A stretch of DNA of 64,000 nt from an uncultured virus (IMG/VR IMGVR_UViG_3300042887_005646) (Duplodnaviria > Heunggongvirae > Uroviricota > Caudoviricetes), in the IMG/VR virus record IMGVR_UViG_3300042887_005646; one strand, 5' to 3'. This document shows positions 33,610 through 60,525 of this stretch, piece by piece. The notes beneath the pieces were generated by a model that saw only the letters and a list, made by a program, of their open reading frames with translations, did not search any database and was not told the DNA's origin. The position numbers were made by a program, and so were the translations under genes. Within the stretch, counting starts at the first letter, position 1; each line of letters opens with the position of its first letter.

Positions 33610-34326
33610 GTGAAAAAATATACTATTAATAGATGGTCAGGAATGCGTCACGGCCACAATATTGCGCCGCACTCAGTCCTAATAAATGCTAACATGCATA
33701 GTCTATATCTAAGGGACGCCGATTTGCGCTTTGCAGACCTGTCTGGCGCGAATCTTCAACAAACAGACCTTTCGGGGGCAGACCTAACAGGCGCTAATTT
33801 AGCGGACGCTGATTTATCTGGCGCCAATCTCGAGGGCGCTATTTTAGAGCAGGCAGACCTAGCAGGTGCATTTTTAAACCAGGCTCAGCTTACCAACGCT
33901 AATTTAACCGACGCAGATCTAAGAAGAGTAAAAGGCGCGAGCTGCTTCCTTTTAGGCGCCAACCTAAAAGGAGCTAATATGTACTCGGCTGACTTTACTG
34001 CTGCTGACTTCTCAGCGGCTATACTGTCTGATGCTAATTTAATTATGGCGCAATTGTCTAATTCTAGGTTCCATGACGCGGACTTGTCCCGAGCGATTAT
34101 TACCGGGGCTGATTTGCGTGAGGCTGACTTCTGTGGCGCTAATTTAGAGTTTGCAAATTTGACCGGCTCAGACTTAAATAGGGCAAATTTTGAAGGTGCA
34201 AATTGTTTTCTCACTATCGGCGGCTTTACCAGCATGGGGAACATTCGCGCGACAATATGTATCGAGGGAGCATTTTTTGACCCTAAGCTGGCCTCTTTCA
34301 TAGAGTATATAAGGATTAAAACATAA
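33610..34326 (+). CDS. Pentapeptide repeat protein
   Basis: 238 aa; GTG start with GAGGTG SD; NCFL...GAFFDPKL..I C-cap like the array. Confidence 0.92.
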   Translation: MKKYTINRWSGMRHGHNIAPHSVLINANMHSLYLRDADLRFADLSGANLQQTDLSGADLTGANLADADLSGANLEGAILEQADLAGAFLNQAQLTNANLTDADLRRVKGASCFLLGANLKGANMYSADFTAADFSAAILSDANLIMAQLSNSRFHDADLSRAIITGADLREADFCGANLEFANLTGSDLNRANFEGANCFLTIGGFTSMGNIRATICIEGAFFDPKLASFIEYIRIKT

Positions 34327-36710
34327 TGGCTATAGACCCAAAGACAGGCACCGGTATTGTTAACGGCTATCAGATAGGACCAGGCGAGGACTTACAGGAC
34401 GCGAGCTTACAGGGCGCGGACTTGCGTGGCGCGGACCTGTCACGTGCTTTTTTATATGGAGCAAACCTAAAAGGAGCTAATTTAGCCGGGGCAAACCTAT
34501 CGGGCGCTGGCTTTTATAATGCCAGCCTAGAGGAGGCAAACCTTGAGGGAGCAACCCTCGATGGAACTGACTTTATGTCGGCGAACCTTTATAAAACGAA
34601 CCTCTATAAGGCTAGCCTTATCGGAGCCATACTAGCCTGGGCAAATCTTGCAGAAGCTCGGCTGGAGGACGCAAACTTATATAAGGCCAATCTATCCGAA
34701 TCGGACCTCAGTAGAGCTAACCTAAAGGGAGCAAAGCTTATTCGCGCGGACCTGAGCGGCGCGCAAATTTACAAAACGGATTTTTTTCTAGCCGATCTAA
34801 CTCGCGCCAATCTATCGTACGCAATTCTAGTTGAGCCGGTAGTTTCATTTGCGTGTCTCTCAAGCGCAAATTTAGAAGGAGTTCACGGACAGACTGTTAA
34901 ATTTCTCAACTGCTGCATGGATAATGTAAATTTATCAGAGTCTAATTTTTTTTGGTATAATAGCGATATGGAGTTTGACCCGCCGAGGTCTGTTCTTTTT
35001 ATAAATAGCTCGCTAAAAAGAGCTAACCTGTTGGAAGCCACTCTAGGGGGCGCTCTATTCTTCCAGACAGACTTAGATGGGGCAGATTTTACCCTTTCTG
35101 ATTTAGAAGGGGCCATGTTTAGTGATGCCCCCGGTTTATTAATAGGAAATAATGCTTTCTATACTAAAATGGACGAGAATCGCTTAAGTAGCTTAGACAC
35201 AGAAATTTTTAAAAAATATAAAAATAAAAAATATAAAAATAATTTAAAAAATGTTAAATTTATTCAGACAAATTTAAATTTAGCCACTTTTGTAGATCTG
35301 ACCATAGATGCTAATTTTAAAAAAGCCTCTTTATTGGGGGCCTCTTTTGTAGACTGCGATTTAACAAAATCTACAAATCTGGACGAGCGGCAGTCAGCTA
35401 GGTTTATTTTTGAGGGCAACACAAAAGCCCCCCAGGGGTTTACCATGTCTGATTACATAGACATAAACGGGCACAAAGTTGGCCCCGGTATGGACCTAAG
35501 GGGGGCTGATCTACATGATGTAAATTTAGCAGGCGCAGTTCTCGATGGCGCGAATCTATCGAGGGCCAATCTCACAGGAGCAGATCTTAGCTACTCTAGG
35601 ATGAATAAAACAAATCTGTCCAATGCGGATCTGAGTGATAGCTTTGCAAAAAGCGTAAAAATAAATAAATCTAATCTTACCGGCGCAAAACTAAAAAGTT
35701 CTATCTTTGCAGATTCTACTGTATCTCATTCTAACCTATCAAAAACTGTTGCGCCTCATATAAAAATAACAAAGAGCAAGCTAAATAATAATAATTTTAA
35801 AGACTCTGATCTGTCCGGCGCACATTTATCAAACATAAATTTAAATAAAAATAAATTAGATAACACATCGTTCGACAGCAGCTCTATCATAAATTCTGAA
35901 TTTGAAGACAATGAGTACAATAAGGTTAATTTTAAAAACGCCTCATTTACAGGGTCCCTTTTTGATGAGCGAGATTTAGCAGATTCCGACTTCAGAAAGG
36001 CGCGTATAGATAGAACCTTTTTTGGGAGCGGCGGAGGCGCGCCTGTAGATATGCGCAGAGCAAAGTTCAAAAACGCTAAATTCTATGACGATAAACCAAA
36101 TACTATACCTTATCTGATGTCCGAAGATCTTCTGAAGATCTCCGCCGAGGACATCGCAAAAGCCAGGTCTGAGATAGGCTCAAAAATAGAGTCTCATCCG
36201 GATTATTTAGGGCGCCGCTACGGACTATGGATGCACATGACTGAGCACCCCAAAGTAGATTATTATGGTCAGCTTTCTGTAACTCCCTATGAGGCGGGCG
36301 AACGTAGTGCCTATGAAGAAAGCTTAGAAATAACTAAAGAGTATGGGGTTGTTTTTGAAGGTACTGCGACTCTTTTTAAAGGGGATGTAATTAGCGCAAA
36401 AAGTAATTTTGGTTTTTTAGAACCCGCTTATTCTACTTATTATAAAAATATACTATCTGAGGGCGGCTACAAAGAGGGATTTTTAGACACCCAGGCGGCT
36501 AAGATAGTTCAGCTGAATGTGCTGGGGTGGCAGGGGAATCCTAGCATAATAAAAAAATTTAAAGATAGTGGGATACCCGTAAAAATATTCAAGAGGGGCG
36601 TCGCGGTGCCTCCGAGAGAACCTAACCCGAAGGAGAGCTGCTGCGAGTGCGGCCGGCGGGCTAGCCTCATGGACCCACGCGGCAATACTTTTTGCGAAGA
36701 GTGCTACTAG
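34326..36710 (+). CDS. Two-solenoid pentapeptide repeat protein + putative ADP-ribosyltransferase-like domain + C4 zinc finger
   Basis: 794 aa; MAIDPKTGTG cap; LWMHMT, LSVTPY, YGVVF, KEGFLD; CECG...CEECY. Confidence 0.85.
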   Translation: MAIDPKTGTGIVNGYQIGPGEDLQDASLQGADLRGADLSRAFLYGANLKGANLAGANLSGAGFYNASLEEANLEGATLDGTDFMSANLYKTNLYKASLIGAILAWANLAEARLEDANLYKANLSESDLSRANLKGAKLIRADLSGAQIYKTDFFLADLTRANLSYAILVEPVVSFACLSSANLEGVHGQTVKFLNCCMDNVNLSESNFFWYNSDMEFDPPRSVLFINSSLKRANLLEATLGGALFFQTDLDGADFTLSDLEGAMFSDAPGLLIGNNAFYTKMDENRLSSLDTEIFKKYKNKKYKNNLKNVKFIQTNLNLATFVDLTIDANFKKASLLGASFVDCDLTKSTNLDERQSARFIFEGNTKAPQGFTMSDYIDINGHKVGPGMDLRGADLHDVNLAGAVLDGANLSRANLTGADLSYSRMNKTNLSNADLSDSFAKSVKINKSNLTGAKLKSSIFADSTVSHSNLSKTVAPHIKITKSKLNNNNFKDSDLSGAHLSNINLNKNKLDNTSFDSSSIINSEFEDNEYNKVNFKNASFTGSLFDERDLADSDFRKARIDRTFFGSGGGAPVDMRRAKFKNAKFYDDKPNTIPYLMSEDLLKISAEDIAKARSEIGSKIESHPDYLGRRYGLWMHMTEHPKVDYYGQLSVTPYEAGERSAYEESLEITKEYGVVFEGTATLFKGDVISAKSNFGFLEPAYSTYYKNILSEGGYKEGFLDTQAAKIVQLNVLGWQGNPSIIKKFKDSGIPVKIFKRGVAVPPREPNPKESCCECGRRASLMDPRGNTFCEECY

Positions 36711-36743
36711 ATGATATTTAGCGCAATTAACTGAGGTAGGTAA

Positions 36744-39700
36744 ATGGCTATAGACCCAAAGACAGGCACCGGTATTGTTAACGGCTATCAGATAGGACCA
36801 GGCGCGGACTTGCGTGGCGCGGACTTGCGTGGCGCGGACCTGACGGGGGCGAACCTTAGAGAGGCGGACCTGACGGGGGCAATTTTACATCGCGCCTCTA
36901 TTATTGATGCGCATCTTACAGATGCCGTCTTGGTCGACACTGATTTTAGTTTTTCGACCATAGAAGGCAGTAGAGTCAATGGCACCATCGTTAACTGCAA
37001 TTTTGATAATGCTAGAATAGCTGGCGCGGTCGGTGGCATATCAGAGGCATTTATCTGGAACTCCTCCTTTAAAAAGACAACTTTCTCCGAGACTTCTATT
37101 ACCGCAAGTGAGCTATTAGAGTGTGACTTCACCGGCTCAGAATTTTATGTTAAAGCGCGTGAAGGCGCCCAACAGATAGAGCCTAATGGTTTTATAGGAT
37201 GCACTTTAAATATAAAAATTGATAACTCACACCTCTCTTATTGGACTTTTACTAATTGCCAGGGTTATATAAAAGCGGGAAACTGCGAGATATTATATTG
37301 CGAATTCTTAATGTCGGACCTGCTAGGATCAGAGTTCATAAAAAATGAGTTTAACTCTACGCAGTTTTCAAAATGCAATCTTGAAGGTGTCGAGTTTTCT
37401 TTTGTAGAAAAAACTAAAAAAAGCAATAAGAAAGATGCGAGCTACACTGCGACGTTTGCGGCGGTGTCTTTATCACTGCAGTTTTGTAATCTGAGTAGCT
37501 CGTCTTTTAAGCTATTAACGGCTTTTGCTCTAGATCTGTTCGGCTCTGATCTGACCTATTCTGATTTCTCGGGGGCGCGCATCGAAGTTATCCGAATTGC
37601 GGGGGCGCAATTTATGGGCGCTAACTGGAGTAATGTAGAAATACTGTGGCACGACTATATGATGGACGTAACGGGCGGCGGACCGGGCTTCGAGGATTTA
37701 TGCCCACTATTTATGCCAGAAGCGGACGTTAAAGAATACTTAGAGACAGACGACTATGAGCTGTATATTAAAAAATTTAAATCAAATATGGATGCCGGCA
37801 TTCTGGCTTCAGACATAGATAAAGTAGAAAAAGAAAGAGATAGCTTCTATAAAGAACTAAAAAAGCGGGCCAATTTTCTTGCTAAGATGGCCTCAGCTGG
37901 CAAAGAATTCGACGCAGATTTTCTTGCTAAGGTGGCCTCAGCTGACAAAGAATTCTACGCAGATTTTCTTGCTAAGGTGGGCTCAGCTGGCAAAGAATTC
38001 TCCGTAGATTTTCTTGCTAAGATGGCCCGAGCTGGCAAAGAATACCCCGCAGATATTAGAAACCGCGTTAAATTAAAGGCTGTAGAGGCGTTTCCTGAGA
38101 TTTTCGATGTTTTGGATGAGCAGGCGGAAATCGAAAACGATCTCCATACTAGAATATTAAAAGCCTGGCTTAAGTCGCCCGTTGGGACGACTGGAGGGTT
38201 CTACAAAATATGCAACGACCAGAGACACCTCGGGAAAAGCACCATTATTGCTGACTTCACAGGCGCTAACTTAGACGGGGCTATCTTTAATGCTCTGAAA
38301 TCTGTGGGCGGATTGCGCCTAAACAAGGCCTCTATGAAAAAGGCAGAGCTTGTAAAATGCGACTTAATATATGCGGATTTTGTAGAGACAGATCTAAGAG
38401 GCGCCACAATATTAGATTCTGTCTTTAATGGCATTATGTTCCAGCTAGCAGACCTGCGCGGCACAACTATAATTGGGTCAGTAATAAACGGAAATTTCAA
38501 AGACGCTGACTTAAAGGGCGCAAAGATCTTAGGAAGTTCATTTCTTTCCTCCGACCTCTCAGAAGCTAAGAATCTAAAAGGAGATACTTTAGCTAGAGCT
38601 TACCTAAGCAACGCTACTAAGCTCCCCCCTAATTTTAAACAAAGTGAACATATCTACTTAAGGGGCCTGAAGGTAGGTCCGGACGCCTCTCTGGCGGGCG
38701 CGGATCTTCATGGCACTAATCTCTTAGGAGTCAACCTGGAGGGAGCGGATTTGTCCGGGGCGAATCTCGAGGGTGCGGATTTAAGTTACGCTAATTTGTT
38801 AGAGACAAATCTACAGGGCGCTAATTTAAATAAAACGACATTAGATAGGACTAAAATTATAAAGTCTGACCTGTCTGATGCAAAACTAATAAAAGCAAAA
38901 ATAAAAGGGACTAATAATAAAGTAAAACTAAAGATAAAAAATACTAATCTATCTCACGCAGACCTGTCAGATGCTCGTATGAGGTACATTAGTATAATGG
39001 ACTCAGATCTCAGCCACGCTAACATTTCCGGCGCTAAAGCGGACTATGTGGGTATAGCGCAATCTGATGCGTCGAATCTGAACGCCAAAAAAATGAAGGC
39101 TAGAAGCATACATCTCTACAAGAACGACTTAACGAACGCGGATTTTTCAGGCTCCCGTATGCAGGGGGCCTTTATTAGAAATAAATTAAAAAACACTTCT
39201 TTTGATGGCGCTTTTCTTGGGGGGCCTCTATCGGGGCAGGACGACGAGCTCGATGACGAACCAGTCAATTTCACCTTCGGCGCGGAAAATAAATTTATTA
39301 AAACTGGCTTCCGCGGGGCTAGATTAAATGCGACTGATTTTACCCTCGTCGAAGACTTAGGGTCTTCTGATTTTAGTAACGCGCGTATAATAAAGCCAAA
39401 GTTTGGCCATGGCACCGATGCCAGAAGGGCCTCTTTTGCGAATGCTAAATTTCTTTTAGATAGGCCATTTGAAGAAGGTGGGAGTATTTCCTCGTCCGAG
39501 TCATCGTTCATGCTGCCCTCTCTTATGCCTAAGAATTTAAGAGAGCACCTTAAGGGCGATATAGATAAACACGCCGCAGCAAGAAAAAAGGCAATAGAGG
39601 CTGACCCAAGATACCTGGGTATGCGTACAGGGCTCTGGATTCACATGACAAATCAGCCTCAGACCAAATATGTGGGCGAACTTTGTGTTAGCCCGTATGA

Positions 39701-40166
39701 AGAGGGTGAGCCTATATTTGAAACGCGAGGGGCATATGGAATTGTGTTCCAAGGCACGGCGCCTCTATTTTCGGTGGATGTGTGGAGCGAAAAGGACCGC
39801 TATGGTGGCCTGTTCCCTGGCGAAACTCCTGATGACTGGAAAGAGACCTTCAAAGAGGGTTTCTTAGACGCGGACAACTCCAGAATAGTACGTCTGAACA
39901 TACTAGAGGGGTTTGAGCGGCCCTATGTAATACGAAAATTTAAAAACGCGGGAATACCGGTACACTCAGTAGAGGGCAGCGAGAAGGCCAAAAAACGCTT
40001 AGCTAAATTTCGCCCGGATGCCGCCACTTATAAAAAAGCGCTCAGCAAAATAGAACCTAGAGATGACTCTGGCAGAATAGCAAACCCCAGCACCTGCCGC
40101 GTATGTGGGCAGCACGCTACTCTTATGTCCCGCAGCGGCGCGCCTATCTGCGAAGATTGTTATTAA
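36744..40166 (+). CDS. Large pentapeptide repeat protein + putative ADP-ribosyltransferase-like domain + C4 zinc finger
   Basis: 1140 aa; same N-cap; LWIHMT, LCVSPY, YGIVF, KEGFLD; CRVCG...CEDCY. Confidence 0.85.
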   Translation: MAIDPKTGTGIVNGYQIGPGADLRGADLRGADLTGANLREADLTGAILHRASIIDAHLTDAVLVDTDFSFSTIEGSRVNGTIVNCNFDNARIAGAVGGISEAFIWNSSFKKTTFSETSITASELLECDFTGSEFYVKAREGAQQIEPNGFIGCTLNIKIDNSHLSYWTFTNCQGYIKAGNCEILYCEFLMSDLLGSEFIKNEFNSTQFSKCNLEGVEFSFVEKTKKSNKKDASYTATFAAVSLSLQFCNLSSSSFKLLTAFALDLFGSDLTYSDFSGARIEVIRIAGAQFMGANWSNVEILWHDYMMDVTGGGPGFEDLCPLFMPEADVKEYLETDDYELYIKKFKSNMDAGILASDIDKVEKERDSFYKELKKRANFLAKMASAGKEFDADFLAKVASADKEFYADFLAKVGSAGKEFSVDFLAKMARAGKEYPADIRNRVKLKAVEAFPEIFDVLDEQAEIENDLHTRILKAWLKSPVGTTGGFYKICNDQRHLGKSTIIADFTGANLDGAIFNALKSVGGLRLNKASMKKAELVKCDLIYADFVETDLRGATILDSVFNGIMFQLADLRGTTIIGSVINGNFKDADLKGAKILGSSFLSSDLSEAKNLKGDTLARAYLSNATKLPPNFKQSEHIYLRGLKVGPDASLAGADLHGTNLLGVNLEGADLSGANLEGADLSYANLLETNLQGANLNKTTLDRTKIIKSDLSDAKLIKAKIKGTNNKVKLKIKNTNLSHADLSDARMRYISIMDSDLSHANISGAKADYVGIAQSDASNLNAKKMKARSIHLYKNDLTNADFSGSRMQGAFIRNKLKNTSFDGAFLGGPLSGQDDELDDEPVNFTFGAENKFIKTGFRGARLNATDFTLVEDLGSSDFSNARIIKPKFGHGTDARRASFANAKFLLDRPFEEGGSISSSESSFMLPSLMPKNLREHLKGDIDKHAAARKKAIEADPRYLGMRTGLWIHMTNQPQTKYVGELCVSPYEEGEPIFETRGAYGIVFQGTAPLFSVDVWSEKDRYGGLFPGETPDDWKETFKEGFLDADNSRIVRLNILEGFERPYVIRKFKNAGIPVHSVEGSEKAKKRLAKFRPDAATYKKALSKIEPRDDSGRIANPSTCRVCGQHATLMSRSGAPICEDCY
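37874..38053 (+). repeat. 45-nt coding tandem repeat x4 (FLAKxxxAxKExxxD)
   Basis: ttttcttgctaag(a/g)tgg...gctg(g/a)caaagaat repeated 4 times. Confidence 0.9.
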
Positions 40167-41306: not shown

Positions 41307-41393
41307 GACAGCTATCTTTTATCTGTGCTATGCAGGCAGCACGCGACTCTTACGTCCCGCAGCGGCGCGCCTATTTGCGAAGATTGTTATTGA
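41307..41393 (+). pseudogene. Orphan zinc-finger cassette remnant, in frame behind the stop of 40176..41306
   Basis: Translates DSYLLSVLCRQHATLTSRSGAPICEDCY*, nearly identical to the end of 36744..40166. Confidence 0.8.
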
Positions 41394-42575: not shown

Positions 42576-43259
42576 ATGAAAAGAAATTACTTCAACATGT
42601 ACTCCGACATGTACGCCCCTGGCCGCGAAGAATACGAATTCTACAGCCGCGCGAGTAACCCAGAAAACGACGGCGGACTCGTGAATGGCTGCGGTACGGT
42701 GGGTGGCTATTATATTGGCCCCGGTGCTGATCTTAGAGAGGCTGTTCTTACTGACGCCGACCTTAAAGGCGCTAACCTCAGAGGGGCTAATCTTAAAGGC
42801 GCCATACTCTGGAGAGCAAACCTTAAACTGGCTTTCTTAGAAGACGCTGACTTAAGGGGCGCTATTTTAGACAGGGCTGACTTATCCCGGGCGCACCTCG
42901 AAAGAGCGCGCTTAGACGGCGCCGATCTCTCAGAGGCAATACTTAGCCGCGCCTATCTGACGGAGGCAAAGCTGCCGCGAGCCACGCTCACAGGCGCTGA
43001 TCTTGAAGGGGCCTTCATGCAGAACACGGCAATTAACGACGCCGACTTAATGAACGCAAATCTTAGAGAGGCCAAGTTAGCCTACGCTAACTTATCTAGG
43101 TCTAATCTAACTTCCGCTGATCTATCTTACGCTAATTTATACGGCGCTGAGCTGTCGCGGACCGAAGTCTGGGACGCGGACTTTACCGGCACAGTCCTAG
43201 ACGGCGCAAAGATCCCGCCCAGAACTATGGCATACATACGAACTAGACGCGGAAATTAA
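42576..43259 (+). CDS. Pentapeptide repeat protein with N-terminal RASNP leader
   Basis: 227 aa. Confidence 0.92.
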   Translation: MKRNYFNMYSDMYAPGREEYEFYSRASNPENDGGLVNGCGTVGGYYIGPGADLREAVLTDADLKGANLRGANLKGAILWRANLKLAFLEDADLRGAILDRADLSRAHLERARLDGADLSEAILSRAYLTEAKLPRATLTGADLEGAFMQNTAINDADLMNANLREAKLAYANLSRSNLTSADLSYANLYGAELSRTEVWDADFTGTVLDGAKIPPRTMAYIRTRRGN

Positions 43260-43736: not shown

Positions 43737-43745
43737 GGACCCTGC

Positions 43746-44473: not shown

Positions 44474-45277
44474 ATGGCATCAAGGCGGCGTAATCCTAGT
44501 TCAGATTTGCTTATGATGGGCGCTGCCTTTATCGGCTCGTTTTTCGTCGCACGAACTGCCGTAGCGCGGCCCGGCTCCGGAGCAGGCTCCATGAGCCCAC
44601 TTCCGAGCGCGGCCTTGCCCGCGCAAAATAGCCCTCCGCAGCCGACGATACCCGGCCCGGTACTTCCTCAGTCGAGCGGACCTCAGTCTCTTTCTAAGCA
44701 CCGGCCCATAGACATGACCGGGCAGCGCGTTCTTCTTATCGGCGACTCGCTGGGCGTGGGAGTCGGTCCGGTCCTGGAGCGTGAGCTTCGTCCGCTCGGT
44801 ATCGCCAGCTTCAAGAACATCTCCGTTGGCGGCACAAATATAATGCAGTGGGTGGTCGGGAGATACCAGCAGTGCAAGGACCTAGACGCGGCCTTGGCCT
44901 CCTATAAGCCAACGATCGTCTTTATAAGTCTCGGCACAAACGACGAGTCCTCTCGCAGCTATATAATAATGGGTAAACCCTTTGTGCTTCCCTACGGGCC
45001 GACCTTCGATGTTGCCAAGCAGCGCGCGCCCCACGTTGCTAAAATGCGGGAAAAGCTAGCAGGCGTTAAGAGTATCTGGCTCGGCCCCCCGATCTCTCAC
45101 CCGGACAAGTGGCCGGCTGACAGAAAGTTTAGAGATATGATTGCTGGTTCCTGGGGCGAGGACTATTTTAATACCGAGGCTGTTGCCCCGGCAAAGACCG
45201 GCGACAAAATACACTTCACAGGCACGGGAAATAAGACCTGGGCGAGCGCAATCGCAAACTGGATTCGCGGCGGCTAG
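44474..45277 (+). CDS. Membrane-anchored SGNH/GDSL hydrolase
   Basis: 267 aa; LLIGDSL, SVGG, LGTND, DKIH blocks; paralog of the upstream gene. Confidence 0.87.
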   Translation: MASRRRNPSSDLLMMGAAFIGSFFVARTAVARPGSGAGSMSPLPSAALPAQNSPPQPTIPGPVLPQSSGPQSLSKHRPIDMTGQRVLLIGDSLGVGVGPVLERELRPLGIASFKNISVGGTNIMQWVVGRYQQCKDLDAALASYKPTIVFISLGTNDESSRSYIIMGKPFVLPYGPTFDVAKQRAPHVAKMREKLAGVKSIWLGPPISHPDKWPADRKFRDMIAGSWGEDYFNTEAVAPAKTGDKIHFTGTGNKTWASAIANWIRGG

Positions 45278-47598: not shown

Positions 47599-49611
47599 AT
47601 GGCTATTAGAGAAGATGGCACTGGAGAGGTTAAAGGGTATTACATAGGGCCGGACGCAGACTTGCAGGGCGCGCAATTGATGGGCGCCGATTTGGCGGGC
47701 ATGGACTTGCATGGCGCTGACTTGACGGGGGCCTACCTAATGGGCGCTAGCCTGTGGGGAGCGGACCTTACGTACGCAGATTTGCGGGGCGCGAAATTAA
47801 TGGATGCGGATTTGCAGGGCGCCGAGCTTATGGGCGCGGACCTGTCAGGTGCGATGCTTATGGGCGCTAAGCTTAAGATTGCGGACTTAAGAGGAGCGAT
47901 CCTGGATGGTGCAGAGCTGTCGAACGCCGATTTTACGGAAGCTAGCGTTGACCCTGAACATGTTTTGCTGATTAAGGCCGTTCCATCGGCTATTAGCAAT
48001 TCTCTAAAAGTGAGCGACGACCGCGTCCATAACCCCGGCTATCCCGAGATGGCCAGGAAGTATAGCATCACTAAGAATTGGAGCGGTATCTATTGGACGG
48101 GTACAGTCGACGGCGTGCCTATTAGGCCGGAGATCGACCTTACTTTCGAGGATTTCGAGGGCGCGGACCTTGAGAGAGCAAACCTTGAAGAGACGACGTT
48201 AACCAATGCTAACTTAAAAAACACTATTTTGCGTAGGGCAAACCTGCGTAGGGCTAACCTGCGCGGTGCGCGCCTAGAGGGCGCAATCTTAGATTCGGCC
48301 TACCTGGAAGACGCCCGCCTGGTTGGTGCTCACCTGGAGGGTGCGCACCTGTGGAATGCTATACTCTATCGCGCTGACCTGAGCGGGGCGCATCTAGAGG
48401 GAGCGCGTCTAACTGGGGCGCTTCTGGAAAATGCTATTCTTCGCAACGCCCATCTGCAGGGCGCGGACTTTGGGGCTGACCCTAATTACGAATGGGCCGG
48501 CGCTCGCCTAAGACATGCAGACCTGCGTGGCGCAAATCTTACCGGGGCTAACCTTGAAGGCGCCGACCTGACGGACGCTGACTTAAGTGGCGCAATATTA
48601 GATGGCGCTATCATGCCCGATGGCAAGGTCTACGCCAGACGCGCTGCTAATCCAGGCTATCCCGAGACCGAAGAAGAGCGGGAGTTGCGTCACATCCGCG
48701 ATAGGTCATGGCGCCATGAACACCAGGACGCCCCTGAGTATCGCGCACTAGTTAACGCCAACAGCCAGCGGGAGTTAGCGCTGCTAGCCGATCAGTTTGG
48801 GACTAAATTGCATACAGCAGCGCTGCCTACTCAGCGCGAGAAGGTCAGACTCGAGGAAGAACGGCGTGGGTACTTTCATCCCGCAAAGGTGAACGCGCCC
48901 CTCAAGTCCGCTTCCGCCAAGTCCGCACCCGGCTACATGGATTACGACGAGGATCTGGAGGAGCGCCTCTTTGACGCGCAGCTTTGGCAGCGGGAGCACG
49001 GACAGAGCCCCGAGGGTCGCGCTGTCGCTAACGCCAACAGCCAGCGTGAGTTAGGCCTTGTTGCAGATCAGTTTAATCGCAAGATTCCTTGGTACGTTAT
49101 GGTGTCTCGGCGCAGGGAGATCGATAGAGAAAACTCTAGTCGAGGGCTCTTCGCTCCCGCTCGCCGCCGCACCCCGAACCCCGGCCAGCCGCCCGCTTGG
49201 GGGCCTCACCACGATTCCTATTACGCTCACCCTTCGGTTAGAGACCATGTGGCCCTCCGAATCACCCCCGCGGGGCGCGAGCATTTAAAAAATTCGCAAG
49301 GCCCCTCTTTTCATCTAACCGTTTTAGAGCGCCTCTGTGAGGTGCCAAGCCTGCCGCAGTTTGTCCTCGAAGGCGAGCTTGGCGAGACAGTCGGAGGCGA
49401 GTTTGGCGAGCGTAGCCCAAGCGGCGCTATGGTGCATTCTCTCTGTGAAGAGGGGCTTATCGAAGCTTTCATCGAAGACAGGCCCCCACGCCCGCAATAT
49501 GTTGAGCCTTACGAGTACAACTATTACGATAATGACCTCGAATATCTGCACCGCGAGATGCTTAGGCGCCGTAACCCGGGGCACCGCCGCGGCTACGGCC
49601 GTAGACTTTAA
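47599..49611 (+). CDS. Multi-module pentapeptide repeat protein (2 solenoids, duplicated NANSQREL unit, His/Arg tail)
   Basis: 670 aa; four RxxNP junctions. Confidence 0.92.
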
Positions 49612-49631: not shown

Positions 49632-50231
49632 ATGGCTTTAGTAAATGGAATTGGCGAGGTTGACGGCTATCAGATTGGGCCGGGCGCGCACTTGCCGCGC
49701 GCGTACCTTGAGGGCGCGTACTTGTTTCGCGCTAATTTACAATACGCAAACTTGGTGGACGCGGTCTTGTCGGGCGCGGACTTGCTCGCCGCGCACTTGC
49801 AGGGCGCGAACTTGCAGGGCGCGAACTTGACGGGCGCCAACTTGCAGCGCGCGAACTTGACGGGCGCGAACTTGAGCGGCGCGGCCTTGAGTGGCGCGAA
49901 CTTGACGCACGCGGACTTGACGGGCGCGAACTTGGGGGGCGCAAAATTGGAGGGCGCGAACTTAGTGGGCGCTAACTTGTTGGGCGCAAACTTCGCTTAT
50001 GCTGGCGTTGATCTAGCGCATGTTCCGTTAATTGAAAAAAGCTTTTATGAAACGCTAGACAGCCTCAGAGTAAACGACGGCGGTCGTCCTCACGTCCTCC
50101 TCAACCCCCGCACCTTCGCCGCCAAGCAAGACGACTCCTACAAAGCCGCGGCCATTCCCGTCAAAGTCAACCCCTTCCAAGTCGCCAAATTCGAAGACTT
50201 CCTCCACCGCGGCCACGGACGTAGACGTTAA
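49632..50231 (+). CDS. Pentapeptide repeat protein with HRGHGRRR tail
   Basis: 199 aa; AAGGAG SD. Confidence 0.93.
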
Positions 50232-50261: not shown

Positions 50262-50705
50262 ATGGCTTTAGTGAATGGAAGAGGTATTGTTAACGGATAT
50301 CGGATTGGGCCGGACGCAAACTTGTCGGGCGCGAACTTGTTTGGCGCGAACCTGAGTGGCGCGCGCTTGGTGTGCGCGGACTTGGAGGGCGCGGACTTGG
50401 CGGGCTCGCGCTTGTCGGGCGCGTTCTTGTTGGGCGCGGACTTACATGGCGCGGACTTGTCGGGCGCGGACTTGACGGGCGCGAACTTGAGGGGCGCCGT
50501 GTTGGTGGGCGCGGACTTGTCGGGCGCGGACTTAACGGGCGCGGACTTAACGGGCACTAACTTCACCGGCGCTACCCTCGACCCGCAACATATCCCGCTG
50601 ATTGAGGCCGCGTTCCGTGAGATGCTGTCGTCTATCAAAGTAAGCAGGGGCCGCACCCCTAACCCCGGCTACGGGCATCACCGCGGCTACGGCCGCAGAC
50701 GTTAA
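50262..50705 (+). CDS. Pentapeptide repeat protein with HRGYGRRR tail
   Basis: 147 aa; AAGGAG SD. Confidence 0.93.
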
Positions 50706-51252: not shown

Positions 51253-52806
51253 ATGCCGCTCAATAAAAAAGGTACGGGTACTATTAAAGGCTATAAGATA
51301 GGCCCTGGCGTGAATCTTAGCGCCGCCGTTTTACCTAACACGAGTCTTAAGGGCGCGGACCTGCGCGGTGCGAACTTACGCAACGCCGAGCTGGCGCACT
51401 CAGACCTATCTAACGCCGACCTCACCGGGGCTGACCTTAGGGGCGCTAACCTGGAAGGCGCAAAGTTACACGATACGATCATAGACGATGCTGACTTCAC
51501 GGGCGCTAACCTGCGCAAAGCGTGTATCTATAAAGCCGGCACCCACGATAAAGATGGCCATGGCAATTATATTAGTGAAAGACCTAACTTTCACGACGCG
51601 GACCTATCCGGCGCGACAATAAAATATACCGAGTTTATGTTTCCGGATTTTAGCGAGGCAGATGCGGAAAGAGCAAAGATAGATCAGTCTTACTTTAGAG
51701 GGCCCGATATGCGCGATGCCGACTTCTCCAAAAGCCGGTGGGCCGGCAGCAGAGGTAGCGCCGGCGGTATATCCCAGGGGTATCTTGGGGATAGCCGTGG
51801 TTCTAAGGATGCGGACCTTAGGGGCGCTAATTTTACAAACTCTAAATTCATAGACTACAGCATAAGAAACGCAGATTTAGAAGATGCAGATTTCTCAGAT
51901 AGTAAATTTGAAAACGTATCTTTTTCGGACAATAATTACAAAAATACAAAATTTGATAGGTCTCATTTTGGGCCTAATAAATTAAAAAAAATGCATGGGC
52001 ATTTAGATCAGCGCGCGTCCAGTTTTGGGGACTACGATGTCGATACGAGTGGTCGCCACGGCTCTATAAAACAGGCCTCCTTTAAAGACGCCACATTTGA
52101 GCTTTTGCCCAAAGGCGGCGGGTTTAAATTTAACGATCTGACAGTAATGCCGGATAGCATGTACAAAGTTTTAAAGCCGGAGATAGAAAAGGAGCGCGCC
52201 GAGATTGACGAGATTATAAAAAATCACCCAAATTATATGGGCGAAATAGATGGGCTCTGGATGCATATGACACCCGCCCCCTTTATGGAGATCTCTAGAA
52301 CAGAGCTATCAGTCAGCCCATATCGCCCCGGGGAGACTTACTATAATCAATGGGGGGACTCTATATACGGGCTTGTGTTTAGGGGCAGAGCGCACCTGTT
52401 TGACCTAGACGTGAACACTAGAAACGGTCTGAGTCACTTTGGTTATATGGTGCCGAAGCATGCCGGCGTTCGCGGCAATACCGATATGATACATAAAGAG
52501 GCGCTTTTAGATATGGATAGTGCCGAGTTCGTTGGTTTGGAAATAGACAAGAGTATCTTAGATGAGTTTGTAAAAAGAGGGCCTGATTATGCTTACTCTT
52601 TAAATAAATATAAAGAGTTTATAGAGAGGATTAAAGCGGCTAAAATCCCGATCAAATATGTAAAAAAAGAGGCCGATCGCGGAAAGGTCACTGACTGGGT
52701 CAAGGGCGCAAAGCGAAAGAAGAATCCCGAGTGCTGCTGCATCTGCGACCAGCCCGCTAGCTTGATGTCCGATAGGGGTGATGTTTTCTGCGAAGATTGT
52801 TTTTAG
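51253..52806 (+). CDS. Pentapeptide repeat protein + putative ADP-ribosyltransferase-like domain + C4 zinc finger
   Basis: 517 aa; LWMHMT, LSVSPY, YGLVF, KEALLD; RKKNP then CICD...CEDCF. Confidence 0.85.
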   Translation: MPLNKKGTGTIKGYKIGPGVNLSAAVLPNTSLKGADLRGANLRNAELAHSDLSNADLTGADLRGANLEGAKLHDTIIDDADFTGANLRKACIYKAGTHDKDGHGNYISERPNFHDADLSGATIKYTEFMFPDFSEADAERAKIDQSYFRGPDMRDADFSKSRWAGSRGSAGGISQGYLGDSRGSKDADLRGANFTNSKFIDYSIRNADLEDADFSDSKFENVSFSDNNYKNTKFDRSHFGPNKLKKMHGHLDQRASSFGDYDVDTSGRHGSIKQASFKDATFELLPKGGGFKFNDLTVMPDSMYKVLKPEIEKERAEIDEIIKNHPNYMGEIDGLWMHMTPAPFMEISRTELSVSPYRPGETYYNQWGDSIYGLVFRGRAHLFDLDVNTRNGLSHFGYMVPKHAGVRGNTDMIHKEALLDMDSAEFVGLEIDKSILDEFVKRGPDYAYSLNKYKEFIERIKAAKIPIKYVKKEADRGKVTDWVKGAKRKKNPECCCICDQPASLMSDRGDVFCEDCF

Positions 52807-53796: not shown

Positions 53797-54363
53797 ATGA
53801 CTATCAGATACTCCCGACACCAGAGAACTGCTAACCCGCCGTGGCAAGAAGGCCCTGACGTCTTCGAGTCTATCATAGAGACTACCGGCTATTCGCCGGC
53901 GGGCGATAGAGATATGTTCAGATCTCGCAGCTATGCAGGTGTGTCTGCGCAGCTCATGGAAGCTGTCGCAGCCTACCTCGCGATCCTTAGAGAATATTCG
54001 GACTCCATCGGTGCCTCAGCGGTATCGCGGGCGCTGAGCAAACGCGTGGATACTTTGGAGGACGCCTTCTATCTTAATAAGGCGCTCCTGACCATCCCCG
54101 ACAGTGCATGGAAAACACCCGCGCTTAAGAGATCCGCGCTAGACGTATTTGGTCTTTTTGTGGACAGCAAAGAGCCGGACCGCTGGAGCGATAGCGAGGA
54201 GTACATCGACGTCCCCTACACCGAGCTTGCTCTTAGGGGAGATGGCCTCATTAACAGAATTTCGAGCAGCATCAGCGTCGGTCTCAAACAGATAGAGATG
54301 GAGACTGGCGGCGGAGCATCTAAGCCTGGCACTCAGACTTTCTTTAGAAACCTAGGCATTTAA
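53797..54363 (+). CDS. Hypothetical protein with N-terminal RTANP
   Basis: 188 aa; GAGGA SD. Confidence 0.75.
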   Translation: MTIRYSRHQRTANPPWQEGPDVFESIIETTGYSPAGDRDMFRSRSYAGVSAQLMEAVAAYLAILREYSDSIGASAVSRALSKRVDTLEDAFYLNKALLTIPDSAWKTPALKRSALDVFGLFVDSKEPDRWSDSEEYIDVPYTELALRGDGLINRISSSISVGLKQIEMETGGGASKPGTQTFFRNLGI

Positions 54364-54706: not shown

Positions 54707-56137
54707 ATGCATAGACGCACGCCCAATCATCATAGAACTGGTCTCATCGGCGACGATTATCCTATCGACCCATACAAGCGGGGCGAGATGACCGATGATC
54801 CCTACAATCGTTATTGGACTGAGGAGTCTATGACGCTCTCGGCCCGTAAGAGAAATCCGGAGGAGGAAGCGGAGGAGCCGCTCTCACTTAATAAAGCCAG
54901 GTCGATGGCCCGTAACGCAATCGGCACCGGGCGCGATTACATGTACAGGGCTAAGCGGGCCGTTGCTCCCCTCGTAGTAGGAGTCTACGCTGCGCCGCTT
55001 GCGCCGGTCGCGAGCAAACTCATAAGTATGACCCCCGAGGAGCGGCCCGCTGACTTTGGCGATTCTGTTGCCGATAGGGTCTTTGGTGCCAGAAAAGCAA
55101 ACCCCGGCTACGGCCGCACGCCCAATCACCATAGAACTGGGCTCATCGGCGACGATTATCCTATCGACCCGTACAAGCGGGGCGAGATGACCGATGATCC
55201 CTACAATCGGTATTGGACTGAAGAGTCTATGACGCTCTCGGCGCGTAAGAAAAATCCCTCTTCGCTTTACTCTGTCGCAGTAAACGGCCGTCCTGTTTAC
55301 TGCAGCCATATCAAAGACCAGGCGATGCGCCGTTTTATGCACCAGCGCTCCGCTGGCGCCGGTGAAGTCACGCTCTCGATAGATGGCGATGTCGCATACA
55401 GAACGGGCCGCGGCGGAGCTATGCGCGTCGGAAACCCGCCCCCCGGTAAGTTCACAGTCGACGGTCGACCTGTTCGCAATAACCATTATAATTTTAAGCC
55501 CGGGGCTAACCTCCAGGCCGCAGACCTCTCATACTTTAACATGGCAGGCGTAGATCTCGAGGGCGCTAACCTCAAATATGCAGACCTTAGACATGCCGAC
55601 TTTAGAGGCGCTAATCTAGATTCTGTAGATCTTACTGGCGCAGACCTTAGGCAGGCCAACTTCTCGGGGGCTAGCTTAGAGAACACTATCTTCTCAGAAG
55701 CGCTCATGATCGGGACAATCTTTGAGGACTGCGACTTAGACTATGCCCAGCTCAATGCCATCGATGCCTCCTATGCTGACTTCGACGGCGCAAGCATGAT
55801 CGGCGCAAAACTCAAAGACGCTGATCTTACTCGCGCCCTCTTTAACAAGGCGGACCTTTCTAAGGCTGACTTTGAGAGGGCTAACCTCAGACGCGCCGAG
55901 TTCTACGGAGCTGACCTGTATGAGACGAACTTCCGCAGTTCCGATCTTCGCGGCGCTTACTACTTAGAGCAGGCAAAAAACGCAGGGAAAGCAGACTTCT
56001 CTTACGCGCAGGCATACAGAGAAGACCTCGGGCCTTTCTTGAAGAAATATCCTGACAACAGCTTCGGATTCGAGTATACTGAGAGGCCTGTTGAGACGCT
56101 GGTGCGTGGCCCCAGGATCCACAGTGACGAAGACTAA
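54707..56137 (+). CDS. Multi-module protein: duplicated N-terminal unit, four RxxNP sites, C-terminal pentapeptide repeats
   Basis: 476 aa; RTPNHHRTG...SARK(R/K)NP unit present twice. Confidence 0.88.
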   Translation: MHRRTPNHHRTGLIGDDYPIDPYKRGEMTDDPYNRYWTEESMTLSARKRNPEEEAEEPLSLNKARSMARNAIGTGRDYMYRAKRAVAPLVVGVYAAPLAPVASKLISMTPEERPADFGDSVADRVFGARKANPGYGRTPNHHRTGLIGDDYPIDPYKRGEMTDDPYNRYWTEESMTLSARKKNPSSLYSVAVNGRPVYCSHIKDQAMRRFMHQRSAGAGEVTLSIDGDVAYRTGRGGAMRVGNPPPGKFTVDGRPVRNNHYNFKPGANLQAADLSYFNMAGVDLEGANLKYADLRHADFRGANLDSVDLTGADLRQANFSGASLENTIFSEALMIGTIFEDCDLDYAQLNAIDASYADFDGASMIGAKLKDADLTRALFNKADLSKADFERANLRRAEFYGADLYETNFRSSDLRGAYYLEQAKNAGKADFSYAQAYREDLGPFLKKYPDNSFGFEYTERPVETLVRGPRIHSDED

Positions 56138-58276: not shown

Positions 58277-58281
58277 TAGAT

Positions 58282-58881
58282 CTACTTTCCGGCGCTTTTG
58301 GATTTGCGGGTTGTTTTACCCGGGGGTTTCTTCCTGGCGTTCGGGGCCCTGCCCAAAGCCACCTCAACCTTATAGTTACTAAGCTCGTCCGCATACTCGG
58401 CCGCGGTCTTAGTTATATCTTCTCTGTTTGCGAAAGTTTTAGGGTAAAACTTGTTGCCGGTATAATAGGTGACATAGGCCGAGTGATCGAGATCATCGGC
58501 GATGGTCTGGGGCGTGAGATTGAAGTATTTCTTAATAATAGAGTAAAGCGCCTTGTACTCTGCCGCGAGCTGGGGGCTAATCATAGATTGCTGCACGGTC
58601 GCGAGCTTAAGCGAATTTAAAAGAGTGTCTAAAGAGGTCACCTCTCGGGCATGTAACTTAGAGGTCACGCATGGAAGAGCGAAGTTAAGCTCGATCAGCT
58701 GCCGGAGCGCGGAATAGGTAAAGAACTTACCCATCAGGCGCTGGACCTCGGGAGCGGATCTTTCGCCTCTCTCCCATCGCTGCATCATCTTGGGGAAGTC
58801 GTGCTCTAGCTGGTCCACATACATAGTCAGATAGCTTATGAGTAAAAGCTTATCTGCTGCGGCTTTGTCTTTGCTGGTCAT
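58282..58881 (-). CDS. Hypothetical protein with basic C-terminal tail
   Basis: 199 aa; GGAG SD. Confidence 0.75.
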   Translation of the reverse strand: MTSKDKAAADKLLLISYLTMYVDQLEHDFPKMMQRWERGERSAPEVQRLMGKFFTYSALRQLIELNFALPCVTSKLHAREVTSLDTLLNSLKLATVQQSMISPQLAAEYKALYSIIKKYFNLTPQTIADDLDHSAYVTYYTGNKFYPKTFANREDITKTAAEYADELSNYKVEVALGRAPNARKKPPGKTTRKSKSAGK

Positions 58882-58921
58882 CGGCTAGCTCCGCTCGATT
58901 ATCTATATCTAGTATCTATAT

Positions 58922-60055
58922 CTAGTTTATAGAGGCCTGTAAGGCAATAAGACACTGGCGGGCTATCTGTCGAGCGGCATCTCTTTCGCTTAAACCTCTG
59001 CGCTGTTCGACCTCTAACTGTCGGCTAAGGTTTGAGATGTACCGATCGAGCGCGGCTTTTCTGCCTGGGCGAAGGTTGCTCGAGTCTATCGAACGGTCAA
59101 AAAGACTCTCGAGATCGCCGGGAGTCATTCTAAATCCGGCCCGCATAATGATTTCCTCAATAGCGCCCTTAGTGTCGGTCTGATTTAGCGGTCTGGCAAC
59201 GGGACCGTTGTGCGAACGCGTAATGCGGACCCCCGGGCTGTTGTCGTCAATCGTGTAAGTAGTTTTACCCCGGCTCGGCGGGTTAGTAACTCTAGTCTGG
59301 ACCGTAGGAAGATTATCGAAAGAGTAGCCTGGATTAGCGACTCTTTCGCTCGCTGATGACTCTACTACAGAATCCAAAGGTATCGAGATCTGGTCGGTCG
59401 GAGGCGAGTCTTCATACATGTGAGTAATCTTTTCTTTCTTCTTATCGGCAGCTCTTTTGAGGCCGTGGCTGATAAGACTCGTCGCAGTGGGAGAGAGCCC
59501 GACGGCTTTTCTCACAGCGCCCGGGTTCTTAAGGCGCAATGAGCCTGGGTCTCTCATAATGGGCGGCGGGGGCTCGGTCGATTTGATGAGCTGAATGAAA
59601 AGGGGGCCTGATCTGAATCTATAGGTAGACGTTTTATCGTCCGCGTAGATGTAGGTAGAGCTTATGCCGCTAAAGTTTGCGCCCTCTATGTCGGCGCCCT
59701 CAAGAATAGCAAAGTCTAAGATGGCGCCCGTAAAGTCGCACATAGCCAGCACAGCGTCTTTGAAAGAGGCGTTTCTTAAATTGCTGCCAATGAAAGTCGC
59801 GTTAGTCAGATCCGCGCCCTCGAAGTTAGCGCCCGTAAGATCCGAGTTATCGAAATTGGCATTGGTCAAAACAGCGCTCTCAAACCCGATATTATTAAGG
59901 GGCCTGTTGCTGAGATCTACACCTGGAAGAACGGCGCCCGACAGCGATGCAAATGGGCGGACTCTGGCGAGCAAAGAGAGCGAGACCTCGCTAAGAGGAC
60001 CAGGGCCCTGAGGCTCGCCATTTCTTTTTCTTCTTATTTCGTATGTGTATTCCAT
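58922..60055 (-). CDS. Pentapeptide repeat protein with three RxxNP-delimited C-terminal segments
   Basis: 377 aa; repeats at about residues 35-135; RLKNP, RVANP, RVTNP. Confidence 0.85.
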   Translation of the reverse strand: MEYTYEIRRKRNGEPQGPGPLSEVSLSLLARVRPFASLSGAVLPGVDLSNRPLNNIGFESAVLTNANFDNSDLTGANFEGADLTNATFIGSNLRNASFKDAVLAMCDFTGAILDFAILEGADIEGANFSGISSTYIYADDKTSTYRFRSGPLFIQLIKSTEPPPPIMRDPGSLRLKNPGAVRKAVGLSPTATSLISHGLKRAADKKKEKITHMYEDSPPTDQISIPLDSVVESSASERVANPGYSFDNLPTVQTRVTNPPSRGKTTYTIDDNSPGVRITRSHNGPVARPLNQTDTKGAIEEIIMRAGFRMTPGDLESLFDRSIDSSNLRPGRKAALDRYISNLSRQLEVEQRRGLSERDAARQIARQCLIALQASIN

Positions 60056-60123
60056 GCTATTACTTACTTTGAGGTATTGTAATTGATGTAGATCTAGGCC
60101 CTAACGTACGGGATTACTTAAAA

Positions 60124-60525
60124 TTACTTAAAGTTCTTCCTGTAGTATTGCAGCGCCTTCATGACCTTAGGGTCGTCAGAGTATCTTTTAGCAATCTCGT
60201 GCTCGACCGTGTGGTAATCCTCGGCGCTGCCGAAGCCTCGCTCCATATAGGTAATCGCAAGTATGGCGTGGCGCTGATCGTGAATCGGCCAGCTCTTTTT
60301 ATCGGGCATAGCGAAATCTCTCGGGCGAAGGTGCGCCCGCTCAGAGGCAGTAAGCCCTCCAAGTTTGCCCGGGTTGTCCATTCTGCCCGACGGGTTCTTA
60401 GGTGCGATTGGTGCCGCGAAATGGCGGCCATCTCTGCTGCGGGTAGCAATGAACCTCTCCGGGTCTAAGCTAGATGCCGGATAGTTAGTAAGATAAAAGA
60501 GCATCATTTCTTTCTCGCTCATCAT
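60124..60525 (-). CDS. Phage protein, DUF6582-like domain preceded by RMDNP
   Basis: 133 aa; LTxxERxxLxxxDFAxP..WPIHD..HA..A pattern recalled from that family (tentative). Confidence 0.7.
   Translation of the reverse strand: MMSEKEMMLFYLTNYPASSLDPERFIATRSRDGRHFAAPIAPKNPSGRMDNPGKLGGLTASERAHLRPRDFAMPDKKSWPIHDQRHAILAITYMERGFGSAEDYHTVEHEIAKRYSDDPKVMKALQYYRKNFK

What the first reader, a model, noticed from the sequence alone, without database searches (positions are those of the whole stretch)
34326..60525. R-x-x-N-P motif at module junctions of 13 proteins: candidate polyprotein-cleavage or virion-sorting signal
Seen: 23 exact RxxNP pentapeptides. They are REPNP (34326), RIANP (36744), RASNP (42576), RRRNP (44474), RISNP/RVMNP (45383), RTPNP/RAPNP (46513), RVHNP/RAANP/RTPNP/RRRNP (47599), RTPNP (50262), RKKNP (51253), RTANP (53797), RKRNP/RKANP/RKKNP/RVGNP (54707), RLKNP/RVANP/RVTNP (58922) and RMDNP (60124). 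Near-variants are YKPNP, RHRNG, RKRNG and RTPNH. I found none in the left arm or the 14-gene array. The motif occurs in unrelated proteins (an SGNH hydrolase, PRPs, hypotheticals). It mostly sits at a boundary: after a short leader, between solenoids, or just before a zinc finger or His/Arg tail. Established: large viruses use short motifs for maturation cleavage and cargo targeting (T4 gp21 and the capsid-targeting sequence, vaccinia I7 AG/X, adenain). Inference: RxxNP is such a signal, making 46513, 47599, 54707 and 58922 polyproteins of virion cargo.
Basis: partly seen in the sequence, partly recalled or inferred. Interest (0 to 1): 0.9.

Follow-up and report, generated by a model that had tools for sequence, protein, structure and literature searches.

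The report
Arg-x-x-Asn-Pro joints in virus proteins
In an uncultured lake virus-like element, a five-residue signature (Arg-x-x-Asn-Pro) marks the joints where protein modules and short end-tags are swapped; it looks like an undescribed cutting or docking signal, but no cut and no enzyme has been shown.

Summary
It is a peptide signal: codons vary, and Arg sits at -3 in 23 of 36 Asn-Pro pairs. 22 of 24 copies lie outside folded blocks. In an ADP-ribosyltransferase-like family, 13 of 13 tailed members keep R, N and P directly before the tail while the two middle residues take nine forms. Near-identical strains swap a zinc-finger tail for an Arg/Gly/Tyr tail right after Asn-Pro. Not shown: cleavage, packaging, a capsid gene or a protease; about 36 kb of the contig was out of reach, and several homologous joints lack the motif. 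Best reading (0.45): a cut site for a viral protease that removes interchangeable tags from cargo proteins; rivals are an uncut docking motif (0.25) and a hinge (0.2). My literature searches found no description. This scan has noted Asn-Pro joints before on other viral DNA, including the same Arg-x-x-Asn-Pro form.

The parts
29485..29844 (-).
   Evidence: kept in 3 of 3 cluster members
29854..31623 (-). Pentapeptide-repeat protein + unknown domain + CxxC..CxxC finger; variant YKPNP (29953-29967) before the finger, no Arg at -3
31796..33196 (+). 466-aa protein with an HExxH zincin-like C-terminal domain, first gene of the + strand block; the only protease-fold candidate in the window; link to the motif not shown
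   Evidence: HEMTH in the sequence; Atlas leads to Peptidase_M90/ATLF/MA-type clusters, TM 0.38-0.56 by query, all under the naming bar; no Pfam or NCBIfam hit
34326..36710 (+). Pentapeptide repeats + ART-like domain + REPNP (36615-36629) + 26-aa zinc-finger tail
36744..40166 (+). Pentapeptide repeats + ART-like domain + RIANP (40074-40088) + 25-aa zinc-finger tail; motif in coil in the model
41307..41393 (+). Decayed copy of the zinc-finger tail, in frame just after the stop of ORF 40176-41306; no RxxNP
42576..43259 (+). 24-aa leader + RASNP (42648-42662) + pentapeptide-repeat module of the type found without a leader in the 14-gene array
44474..45277 (+). RRRNP (44483-44497) + hydrophobic anchor + SGNH-type hydrolase; its paralogue 43746-44471 (40% identical) lacks the motif
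45383..46423 (+). Pentapeptide repeats + RISNP (46295-46309) + 26-aa peptide + RVMNP (46373-46387) + His/Arg tail
   Evidence: peptide duplicated between motifs in contigs of runs X2 and X7
46513..47577 (+). Solenoid + peptide + RTPNP (47149-47163) + solenoid + RAPNP (47518-47532) + His/Arg tail
47599..49611 (+). Four-motif multi-module protein: solenoid, RVHNP (48022-48036), solenoid starting at Met 48049, RAANP (48640-48654), duplicated peptide, RTPNP (49168-49182), unknown module, RRRNP (49564-49578), His/Arg tail
49632..50231 (+). Solenoid + His/Arg tail without an exact motif (Arg lies six residues before Asn-Pro at the homologous joint); counter-example
50262..50705 (+). Solenoid + RTPNP (50652-50666) + His/Arg tail
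51253..52806 (+). Pentapeptide repeats + ART-like domain + RKKNP (52714-52728) + zinc-finger tail; a member of its 90% cluster carries the Arg/Gly/Tyr tail instead
53797..54363 (+). 9-aa leader + RTANP (53824-53838) + unknown domain
   Evidence: kept in 6 of 6 cluster members that include the N-terminus
54707..56137 (+). Duplicated 45-aa peptide ending in RKRNP (54845-54859) and RKKNP (55244-55258), plus RKANP (55091-55105) and RVGNP (55424-55438), then a solenoid
58922..60055 (-). Solenoid + RLKNP (59522-59536) + RVANP (59330-59344) + RVTNP (59279-59293) + helical domain
   Evidence: all three kept in 6 of 6 cluster members, one with RITNP
60124..60525 (-). 47-aa leader + RMDNP (60370-60384) + DUF6582-like domain (Pfam E 0.045, below cut-off)

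Best explanation
RxxNP is a recognition site for a protease of this element, most likely cut after Asn (Arg at P4, Asn at P1, Pro at P1'; a cut after Pro is possible). It joins a payload (pentapeptide solenoid, ART-like enzyme, SGNH hydrolase, small domain) to a short interchangeable tag: a CxxC..CxxC finger or an Arg/Gly/Tyr/His tail at the C-terminus, or a basic leader at the N-terminus. The tag would bring the protein to the assembling particle and be removed at the motif. Gene fusions through the motif give multi-module proteins that the same cut would resolve. Shown: the motif, its specificity, its conservation, its position outside folds, and tail exchange at it. Inferred: that the element is a virus, packaging, cleavage, the cut position and the enzyme.
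For: 24 against 1.6; Arg at -3 in 23 of 36 Asn-Pro pairs against 7.9% at the other seven offsets; five Arg, two Asn and four Pro codons used; 117 unrelated pentapeptide proteins have 14 against 15.4 expected. 13 of 13 tailed ART-family proteins have it directly before the tail, with nine forms of xx and linkers of 11-38 residues, and 0 of 3 tail-less ones have it after the domain. Two unrelated tails follow it and are exchanged right after NP in near-identical proteins (P0219 against 51253; P0027 against 47599; contig joint 49572 to 46382 in run X7). In 10 of 10 similar motif pairs the similarity lies on one side only, and in 8 of 10 it ends within 3 residues of the motif. It occurs at both ends of proteins, so it is not part of one tag. 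T4 offers the template: tag plus short cut motif, with its ART cargo Alt trimmed at both ends (PMC9026906, passages).
Against: No capsid, portal, packaging ATPase or known maturation protease among the window proteins scanned; about 36 kb of the 99,922-base contig and all complete relatives were out of reach. Homologous joints exist without the motif: 29854 (finger tail, YKPNP), 49632 (His/Arg tail), 43746 (anchor plus SGNH), and the first copy of the repeat in 47599. Nearness to recognised edges was not significant (P 0.17) and a masked BLAST test was weak (2 of 11 ends, P 0.04). Motif pairs are paralogous and not independent. Pro at P1' blocks most proteases (own knowledge). Exchange at the motif can also follow from shared codons giving microhomology.
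Confidence: 0.45

Rival explanations
1. RxxNP is an uncut docking motif: it binds a capsid, scaffold, membrane or chaperone protein and so recruits proteins; it sits in linkers and ends because it must be exposed, and several copies raise avidity.
For: All the enrichment, specificity and conservation data fit equally. Pieces that a cut would release are often only 7-27 residues. Up to four copies per protein.
Against: Does not by itself explain why unrelated tails start exactly after NP and why the motif goes with the tail in the ART family (13 of 13 tailed, 0 of 3 tail-less after the domain). No binding partner identified.
Confidence: 0.25
2. RxxNP is a structural joint (Asn-Pro turn or cap with an Arg that contacts DNA or acidic lipid) that spread by gene duplication, fusion and recombination at shared codons; nothing reads it as a signal.
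For: Asn-Pro is a common turn and helix-cap pair (own knowledge). Many copies are paralogous, and strain joints fall at the shared codons. Homologous joints without it exist.
Against: About 17 copies have unrelated upstream sequence (my grouping). Lys does not replace Arg (KxxNP 1 against 1.4) and Arg is confined to -3, which a general basic hinge would not require. Codons vary synonymously.
Confidence: 0.2
3. The Asn-Pro bond breaks without a separate protease: by asparagine cyclisation (as in YscU, reovirus mu-1 and RsgI), perhaps assisted by the Arg or by the particle, or by a skip during translation.
For: Asn-Pro self-cleavage is documented (PMC3207474, passages; PMC10328401, passages). 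No protease was identified in the window.
Against: In those cases the site lies inside one conserved fold; here it lies in unrelated contexts and in coil. The likeness of NPG (12 of 24) to viral 2A peptides is recalled, and 2A is a eukaryotic mechanism, whereas these genes have Shine-Dalgarno-like sites.
Confidence: 0.07

Closest known systems
T4 gp21 / capsid-targeting sequence and SPN3US gp245 head maturation
   Same: Short motif with fixed and free positions between a short tag or propeptide and a payload; an ADP-ribosyltransferase cargo (Alt) trimmed at both ends (PMC9026906, PMC10052503; passages).
   Different: Those cut after Glu (L/I-x-E, A-x-E) and mostly remove N-terminal propeptides; here the motif is R-x-x-N-P, tags are often C-terminal and interchangeable, no gp21-like gene was seen, and no cut is shown.
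Asparagine peptide lyases and RsgI (YscU Asn-Pro-Thr-His, reovirus mu-1, RsgI Asn-Pro)
   Same: Asn-Pro as the candidate scissile bond.
   Different: Their sites sit in one specific fold; here the pair lies in linkers of unrelated proteins and has a fixed Arg at -3.
Pro-Pro endopeptidase PPEP-1
   Same: An HExxH zincin that reads Asn-Pro at P2-P1 in repeated sites of neighbouring genes (PMC8610288, passages); ORF 31796 is a zincin-like protein next to the block.
   Different: PPEP-1 needs (ILV)NP-P(AIV)P; only 3 of 24 motifs are followed by Pro and none by P-x-P; PPEPs are secreted Firmicute enzymes.
Phage polyvalent proteins and head-packaged ARTs
   Same: Multi-domain proteins with ART-fold modules, proposed to be packaged and injected (PMC9503650, passages).
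   Different: The passages read mention no junction motif and the text has no 'pentapeptide'; no MuF or portal fusion was detected here.
Adenain, vaccinia I7, ASFV pS273R (clan CE)
   Same: Motif-directed processing of core precursors and polyproteins (recalled).
   Different: Gly-Gly or Ala-Gly motifs in eukaryotic viruses (recalled); no such protease recognised in the window.

Membership tests
T4 gp21 / SPN3US gp245 prohead-protease maturation | Short motif with fixed and free positions at tag/payload borders | tested here: met
T4 gp21 / SPN3US gp245 prohead-protease maturation | Cut after Glu in L/I-x-E or A-x-E | tested here: not met
   The motif is R-x-x-N-P; Glu motifs
T4 gp21 / SPN3US gp245 prohead-protease maturation | A prohead protease gene in the genome | tested here: inconclusive
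   None among 64 (Pfam) and 52 (PHROGs) window proteins scanned; about 36 kb of the contig not seen
T4 gp21 / SPN3US gp245 prohead-protease maturation | Motif in capsid, portal or scaffold proteins | not testable with these tools
   No such gene in the window; no whole genome held; no related contig with structural genes found
T4 gp21 / SPN3US gp245 prohead-protease maturation | Cleavage shown in particles | not testable with these tools
   Needs proteomics
Asparagine peptide lyases / RsgI | Conserved Asn-Pro pair | tested here: met
Asparagine peptide lyases / RsgI | Site embedded in one conserved folded domain | tested here: not met
   22 of 24 outside folded blocks; coil with pLDDT 61-74 in the one usable model
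PPEP-1 substrates | NP followed by P-x-P | tested here: not met
   3 of 24 followed by Pro, 0 of 24 by P-x-P
PPEP / ATLF-fold zincins (ORF 31796) | HExxH zincin fold | tested here: inconclusive
   HEMTH present; Atlas leads under the naming bar; own single-sequence model unusable, pLDDT 35
ADP-ribosyltransferase superfamily (domain before the motif in 34326, 36744, 51253) | ART fold | tested here: inconclusive
   Model pLDDT 85; best Z 5.3 (tRNA 2'-phosphotransferase, 89 aligned, rmsd 2.9), most of the 40 rows are ART-fold chains, none at Z 8; Foldseek no match at E 0.001; Atlas lead Arr at 0.83
Clan CE viral maturation (adenain, I7, pS273R) | Gly-Gly or Ala-Gly cut motif (recalled) | tested here: not met
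   The enriched motif is R-x-x-N-P
Phage polyvalent proteins | Fusion to MuF or portal, or head-packaging gene context | tested here: inconclusive
   No MuF or portal hit in the window; rest of contig unseen

The most novel reading that the evidence does not exclude
An undescribed lineage of large bacterial viruses uses its own Arg-x-x-Asn/Pro-specific protease and a plug-in scheme of interchangeable cleavable tags (zinc finger, Arg/Gly/Tyr tail, basic leader) to load captured bacterial pentapeptide solenoids, ART-fold enzymes and hydrolases into particles, with new cargo made by recombination or gene fusion at the motif.
Probability: 0.33. Interest if true: 0.85.

Novelty: new variant of a known kind. 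Interest (0 to 1): 0.6.

Why it matters
If RxxNP is cut, it gives a new protease specificity (at or next to an Asn-Pro bond, which most proteases avoid) and a readable code for which proteins of an uncultured virus are processed or packaged. Natural tail swaps at the motif in near-identical strains make the claim directly testable with short reporters. If it is an uncut docking motif it is still an undescribed sorting signal. If it is a hinge, the interest falls to a note on how modular viral proteins are shuffled.

Tried and rejected
Genomes of relatives: protein scans of IMG/VR, JGI metagenomes and GTDB genomes (41) returned no loci. A finger-tail pattern gave 0 viral loci and 1 genome locus without the motif. 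A triple-motif pattern gave 119 viral loci that are background: 65 RxxNP against 37.3, 1.9 per 10,000 aa against 21 in the right arm, at most 3 per locus, and biased upward by the pattern. A pattern for the solenoid start gave 2 viral and 103 metagenome loci, mostly bacterial secreted-type proteins or off-frame hits; only L140 is a clear relative. A DUF5872-end pattern gave 18 loci, all with a stop inside the would-be motif. Annotated phages gave no close relative. The homologue search for ORF 60124 among longer proteins found none; the one with alignment A2 was flooded by unrelated pentapeptide proteins, used as a control. The complex prediction of the 31796 domain with a motif-bearing peptide gave no verdict (score 0.02, controls not folded) and counts neither way. 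The single-sequence fold of 31796 failed. A DNA-level element was rejected because codons vary and Rfam finds only the tRNA (102); 20 further RxxNP lie in frames outside my gene set (44 in six frames), about what I estimate chance gives. The near-variants were rejected as unenriched. A tankyrase-type RxxxxG motif and sortase-B NPxTx (both recalled) were considered and dropped: eukaryotic partner, and no Thr after NP-x.
Full report
1. Setting. The window has dense small genes, AGGAG-type ribosome-binding sites, one tRNA-Leu, a MoxR/vWA pair, a protein with a PHROGs endolysin hit (E 1e-7) and about 35 pentapeptide-repeat genes. Its proteins are on record on a contig of 99,922 bases, so about 36 kb is unseen; no whole genome is held. 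Five runs, all labelled lake-water metagenome, hold half or more of the words of 50,000-59,900, one marked as the possible source. No capsid, portal, terminase or packaging ATPase was recognised among 64 proteins scanned against Pfam and 52 against PHROGs. That this is a bacterial virus is therefore an inference (I put it near 0.85).

2. The observation. In my hand-picked set of 76 ORFs the right arm has 24 against 1.62 expected (maximum 7 in 300 shuffles); the left arm and the 14-gene array have none, against only 0.51 and 0.16. Block shuffles that keep local composition give 1.5 (maximum 8 in 1000). The signal is the spacing: 23 of 36 Asn-Pro pairs with eight upstream residues have Arg at -3, against 7.9% at the other offsets (P 4e-17). 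Lys does not substitute, nor Asp for Asn, and RxxNG is not enriched. Codons vary (Arg CGC 10, AGA 9, AGG 2, CGT 2, CGA 1; Asn AAC 18, AAT 6; all four Pro codons), so it is a peptide feature; Gly follows in 12 of 24. Controls: 117 unrelated pentapeptide proteins, 14 against 15.4; 119 viral loci, 1.9 per 10,000 aa against 21 here. By my grouping about 17 of the 24 copies have unrelated upstream sequence.

3. Position. With blocks defined without reference to the motif (56% of residues), 22 of 24 copies lie outside and the other two touch the cap of a solenoid (Fisher P 0.003 against other prolines). Nearness to a block edge or terminus was not beyond chance (13 of 24 against 10.6, P 0.17), partly because several modules have no recognised boundary. 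An AlphaFold model of the end of ORF 36744 (15 sequences, pLDDT 85) puts RIANP in coil of pLDDT 61-74 between a helix and the CxxC..CxxC finger. The domain before it resembles ADP-ribosyltransferase folds weakly but consistently (best Z 5.3; most of 40 rows are ART-fold).

4. Conservation and exchange. A profile of that domain found 15 cluster representatives (P0014 is a spurious repeat protein and P0013 a fragment, both left out; P0001 shares a cluster with 36744 and was not counted). With the three window proteins and P0054 and P0055, 13 of 13 tailed proteins have RxxNP directly before the tail, with nine forms of xx and linkers of 11-38 residues (measured for 11). The three tail-less ones (P0010, P0011, P0012) have none after the domain; P0011 has one between a DUF5872-like module and a solenoid, and P0015 has one on each side of the domain. 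In 18 viral loci selected for the same DUF5872 end, a stop follows that Arg within two codons, so the module ends there. Two unrelated tails follow the motif. P0219, in the same 90% cluster as ORF 51253, has the Arg/Gly/Tyr tail in place of the finger, starting right after NP; P0009 and locus L140 have that tail too. P0027 has the body of 47599 with the tail of 45383, and a contig of run X7 makes the same join at the Asn codon (49572 to 46382; 107 letters on the short side). Among window motifs, 10 pairs reach 35% identity on one side and none on both; in 8 of 10 the similar segment ends within three residues of the motif (pairs not independent). A masked BLAST version was weak (2 of 11 ends, P 0.04). 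Other strain joints (laid at 82% likeness, so less secure): the peptide between the two motifs of 45383 is duplicated in frame with a new RVPNP (X2, X7); and an intergenic stretch with a ribosome-binding site leads into Met 48049, five residues after RVHNP (X7, 36 letters on the short side), which suggests that 47599 arose by fusion of two genes through the motif.

5. Against. Homologous joints without the motif exist: the finger tail of 29854 follows YKPNP in 3 of 3 cluster members; 49632 has the His/Arg tail without an exact motif; the SGNH paralogue 43746 lacks it; the first copy of the internal repeat of 47599 has lost it. A decayed finger without the motif lies after the stop of 40176. 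Pieces between motifs in 54707 and 58922 are mostly 17-82 residues with no known domain. Shared codons at the motif could themselves draw recombination.

6. Enzyme. The only protease-fold candidate in the window is ORF 31796, an HExxH zincin-like protein heading the + strand block; Atlas leads point to Peptidase_M90, ATLF and MA-type clusters, under the naming bar. PPEP-1, a zincin, reads NP at P2-P1 but needs P-x-P after it (PMC8610288), which 0 of 24 motifs have. The Atlas's nearest clusters are widespread unnamed bacterial and phage proteins, so 31796 may as well be an effector. Nothing ties it to the motif.

7. Mechanism. The layout, payload + RxxNP + interchangeable tag or leader + RxxNP + payload, works like the T4 scheme of targeting tag plus short cut motif, where the ART cargo Alt is trimmed at both ends (PMC9026906; PMC10052503). 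It is not a member of that family: the motif has no Glu and no gp21-like gene was seen. I put a protease site at 0.45, an uncut docking motif at 0.25, a hinge at 0.2, self-cleavage or a translational skip at 0.07; the small rest is a modification site. Placing the cut after Asn rests on analogy and on unchecked earlier notes of x-x-Asn motifs in other viruses, not on a test here.

8. What is known. Searches for 'RxxNP' (3 papers hold it, 2 listed, neither on viruses by title), 'RRNP' with 'virus' (30 of 72 listed, none relevant by title), 'NP motif' with 'bacteriophage', R-x-x-N-P spellings and Asn-Pro with autocleavage, virion and bacteriophage (20 of 74 listed) found no description; I saw listings and abstract starts only. 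Passages read: PMC5894146 ('protease' 0 times in the main text), PMC6260650, PMC10052503, PMC9503650, PMC8610288, PMC9026906, PMC3207474, PMC10328401. No supplements were read, and most subscription papers are outside the library, so absence from print is not proven. This scan's unchecked notes report Asn-Pro joints in several other uncultured viruses, one with the same Arg-x-x-Asn-Pro form in a 175-kb membrane-type phage; I could not reach those genomes, and they are not independent support. What this window adds is the strict Arg at -3, cargo-type payloads, and tail exchange at the motif among near-identical strains.

9. Verdict. Observation confirmed; interpretation partly supported. A real and apparently undescribed junction code whose function is untested. 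New variant of a known kind; interest 0.6.

Noticed in passing
window 18758-27825: The 14 array proteins mostly end in a Gly-Gly motif plus two residues, which looks like a ubiquitin-type end, but the Gly codons overlap the G-rich ribosome-binding site of the next, coupled gene; this is the simpler explanation.
   Followed up: partly
window pentapeptide genes; loci L122-L224: The start of the element's solenoids (GTGxVxGYxIGP) recurs in many metagenome proteins just after what looks like a signal-peptide end, which suggests capture of the mature part of a bacterial secreted protein.
   Followed up: partly
L182:3727-5684: Four small paralogous, apparently secreted proteins next to such a pentapeptide gene and near an integrase-like gene end in RAPNP, RAPNP, RTVNP and RRPDP (3 RxxNP against 0.31 expected). 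May be paralogy or a clue to the motif's origin.
   Followed up: no
window 41307-41393: Decayed zinc-finger tail in frame after the stop of ORF 40176, nearly identical in DNA to the end of ORF 36744.
   Followed up: partly
window 1-56: Eight perfect copies of a 7-base G+C-only repeat at the very start of the window; may be a contig end or an assembly artefact.
   Followed up: no
window 815-4035 and 5637-5719: vWA-like and MoxR AAA+ gene pair and a tRNA-Leu in the left arm.
   Followed up: partly
window 40176-42536 and 60538-63714: Five proteins appear by eye to share a C-terminal helical module; BLAST links 60538 and 61541 (E 1e-5). None has RxxNP.
   Followed up: no
window 31796-33584: Zincin-like gene overlapping a 133-aa gene that is conserved among strains (9 cluster members): the layout of an enzyme and partner or toxin and immunity pair.
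   Followed up: partly
window 43311-45277, 52915-54695: Small proteins with single hydrophobic anchors, two SGNH hydrolases and an endolysin-like protein, as expected of a membrane-associated or lysis block.
   Followed up: no
window 27826-28621: An 800-base stretch without a long ORF between the converging array and ORF 28622.
   Followed up: no
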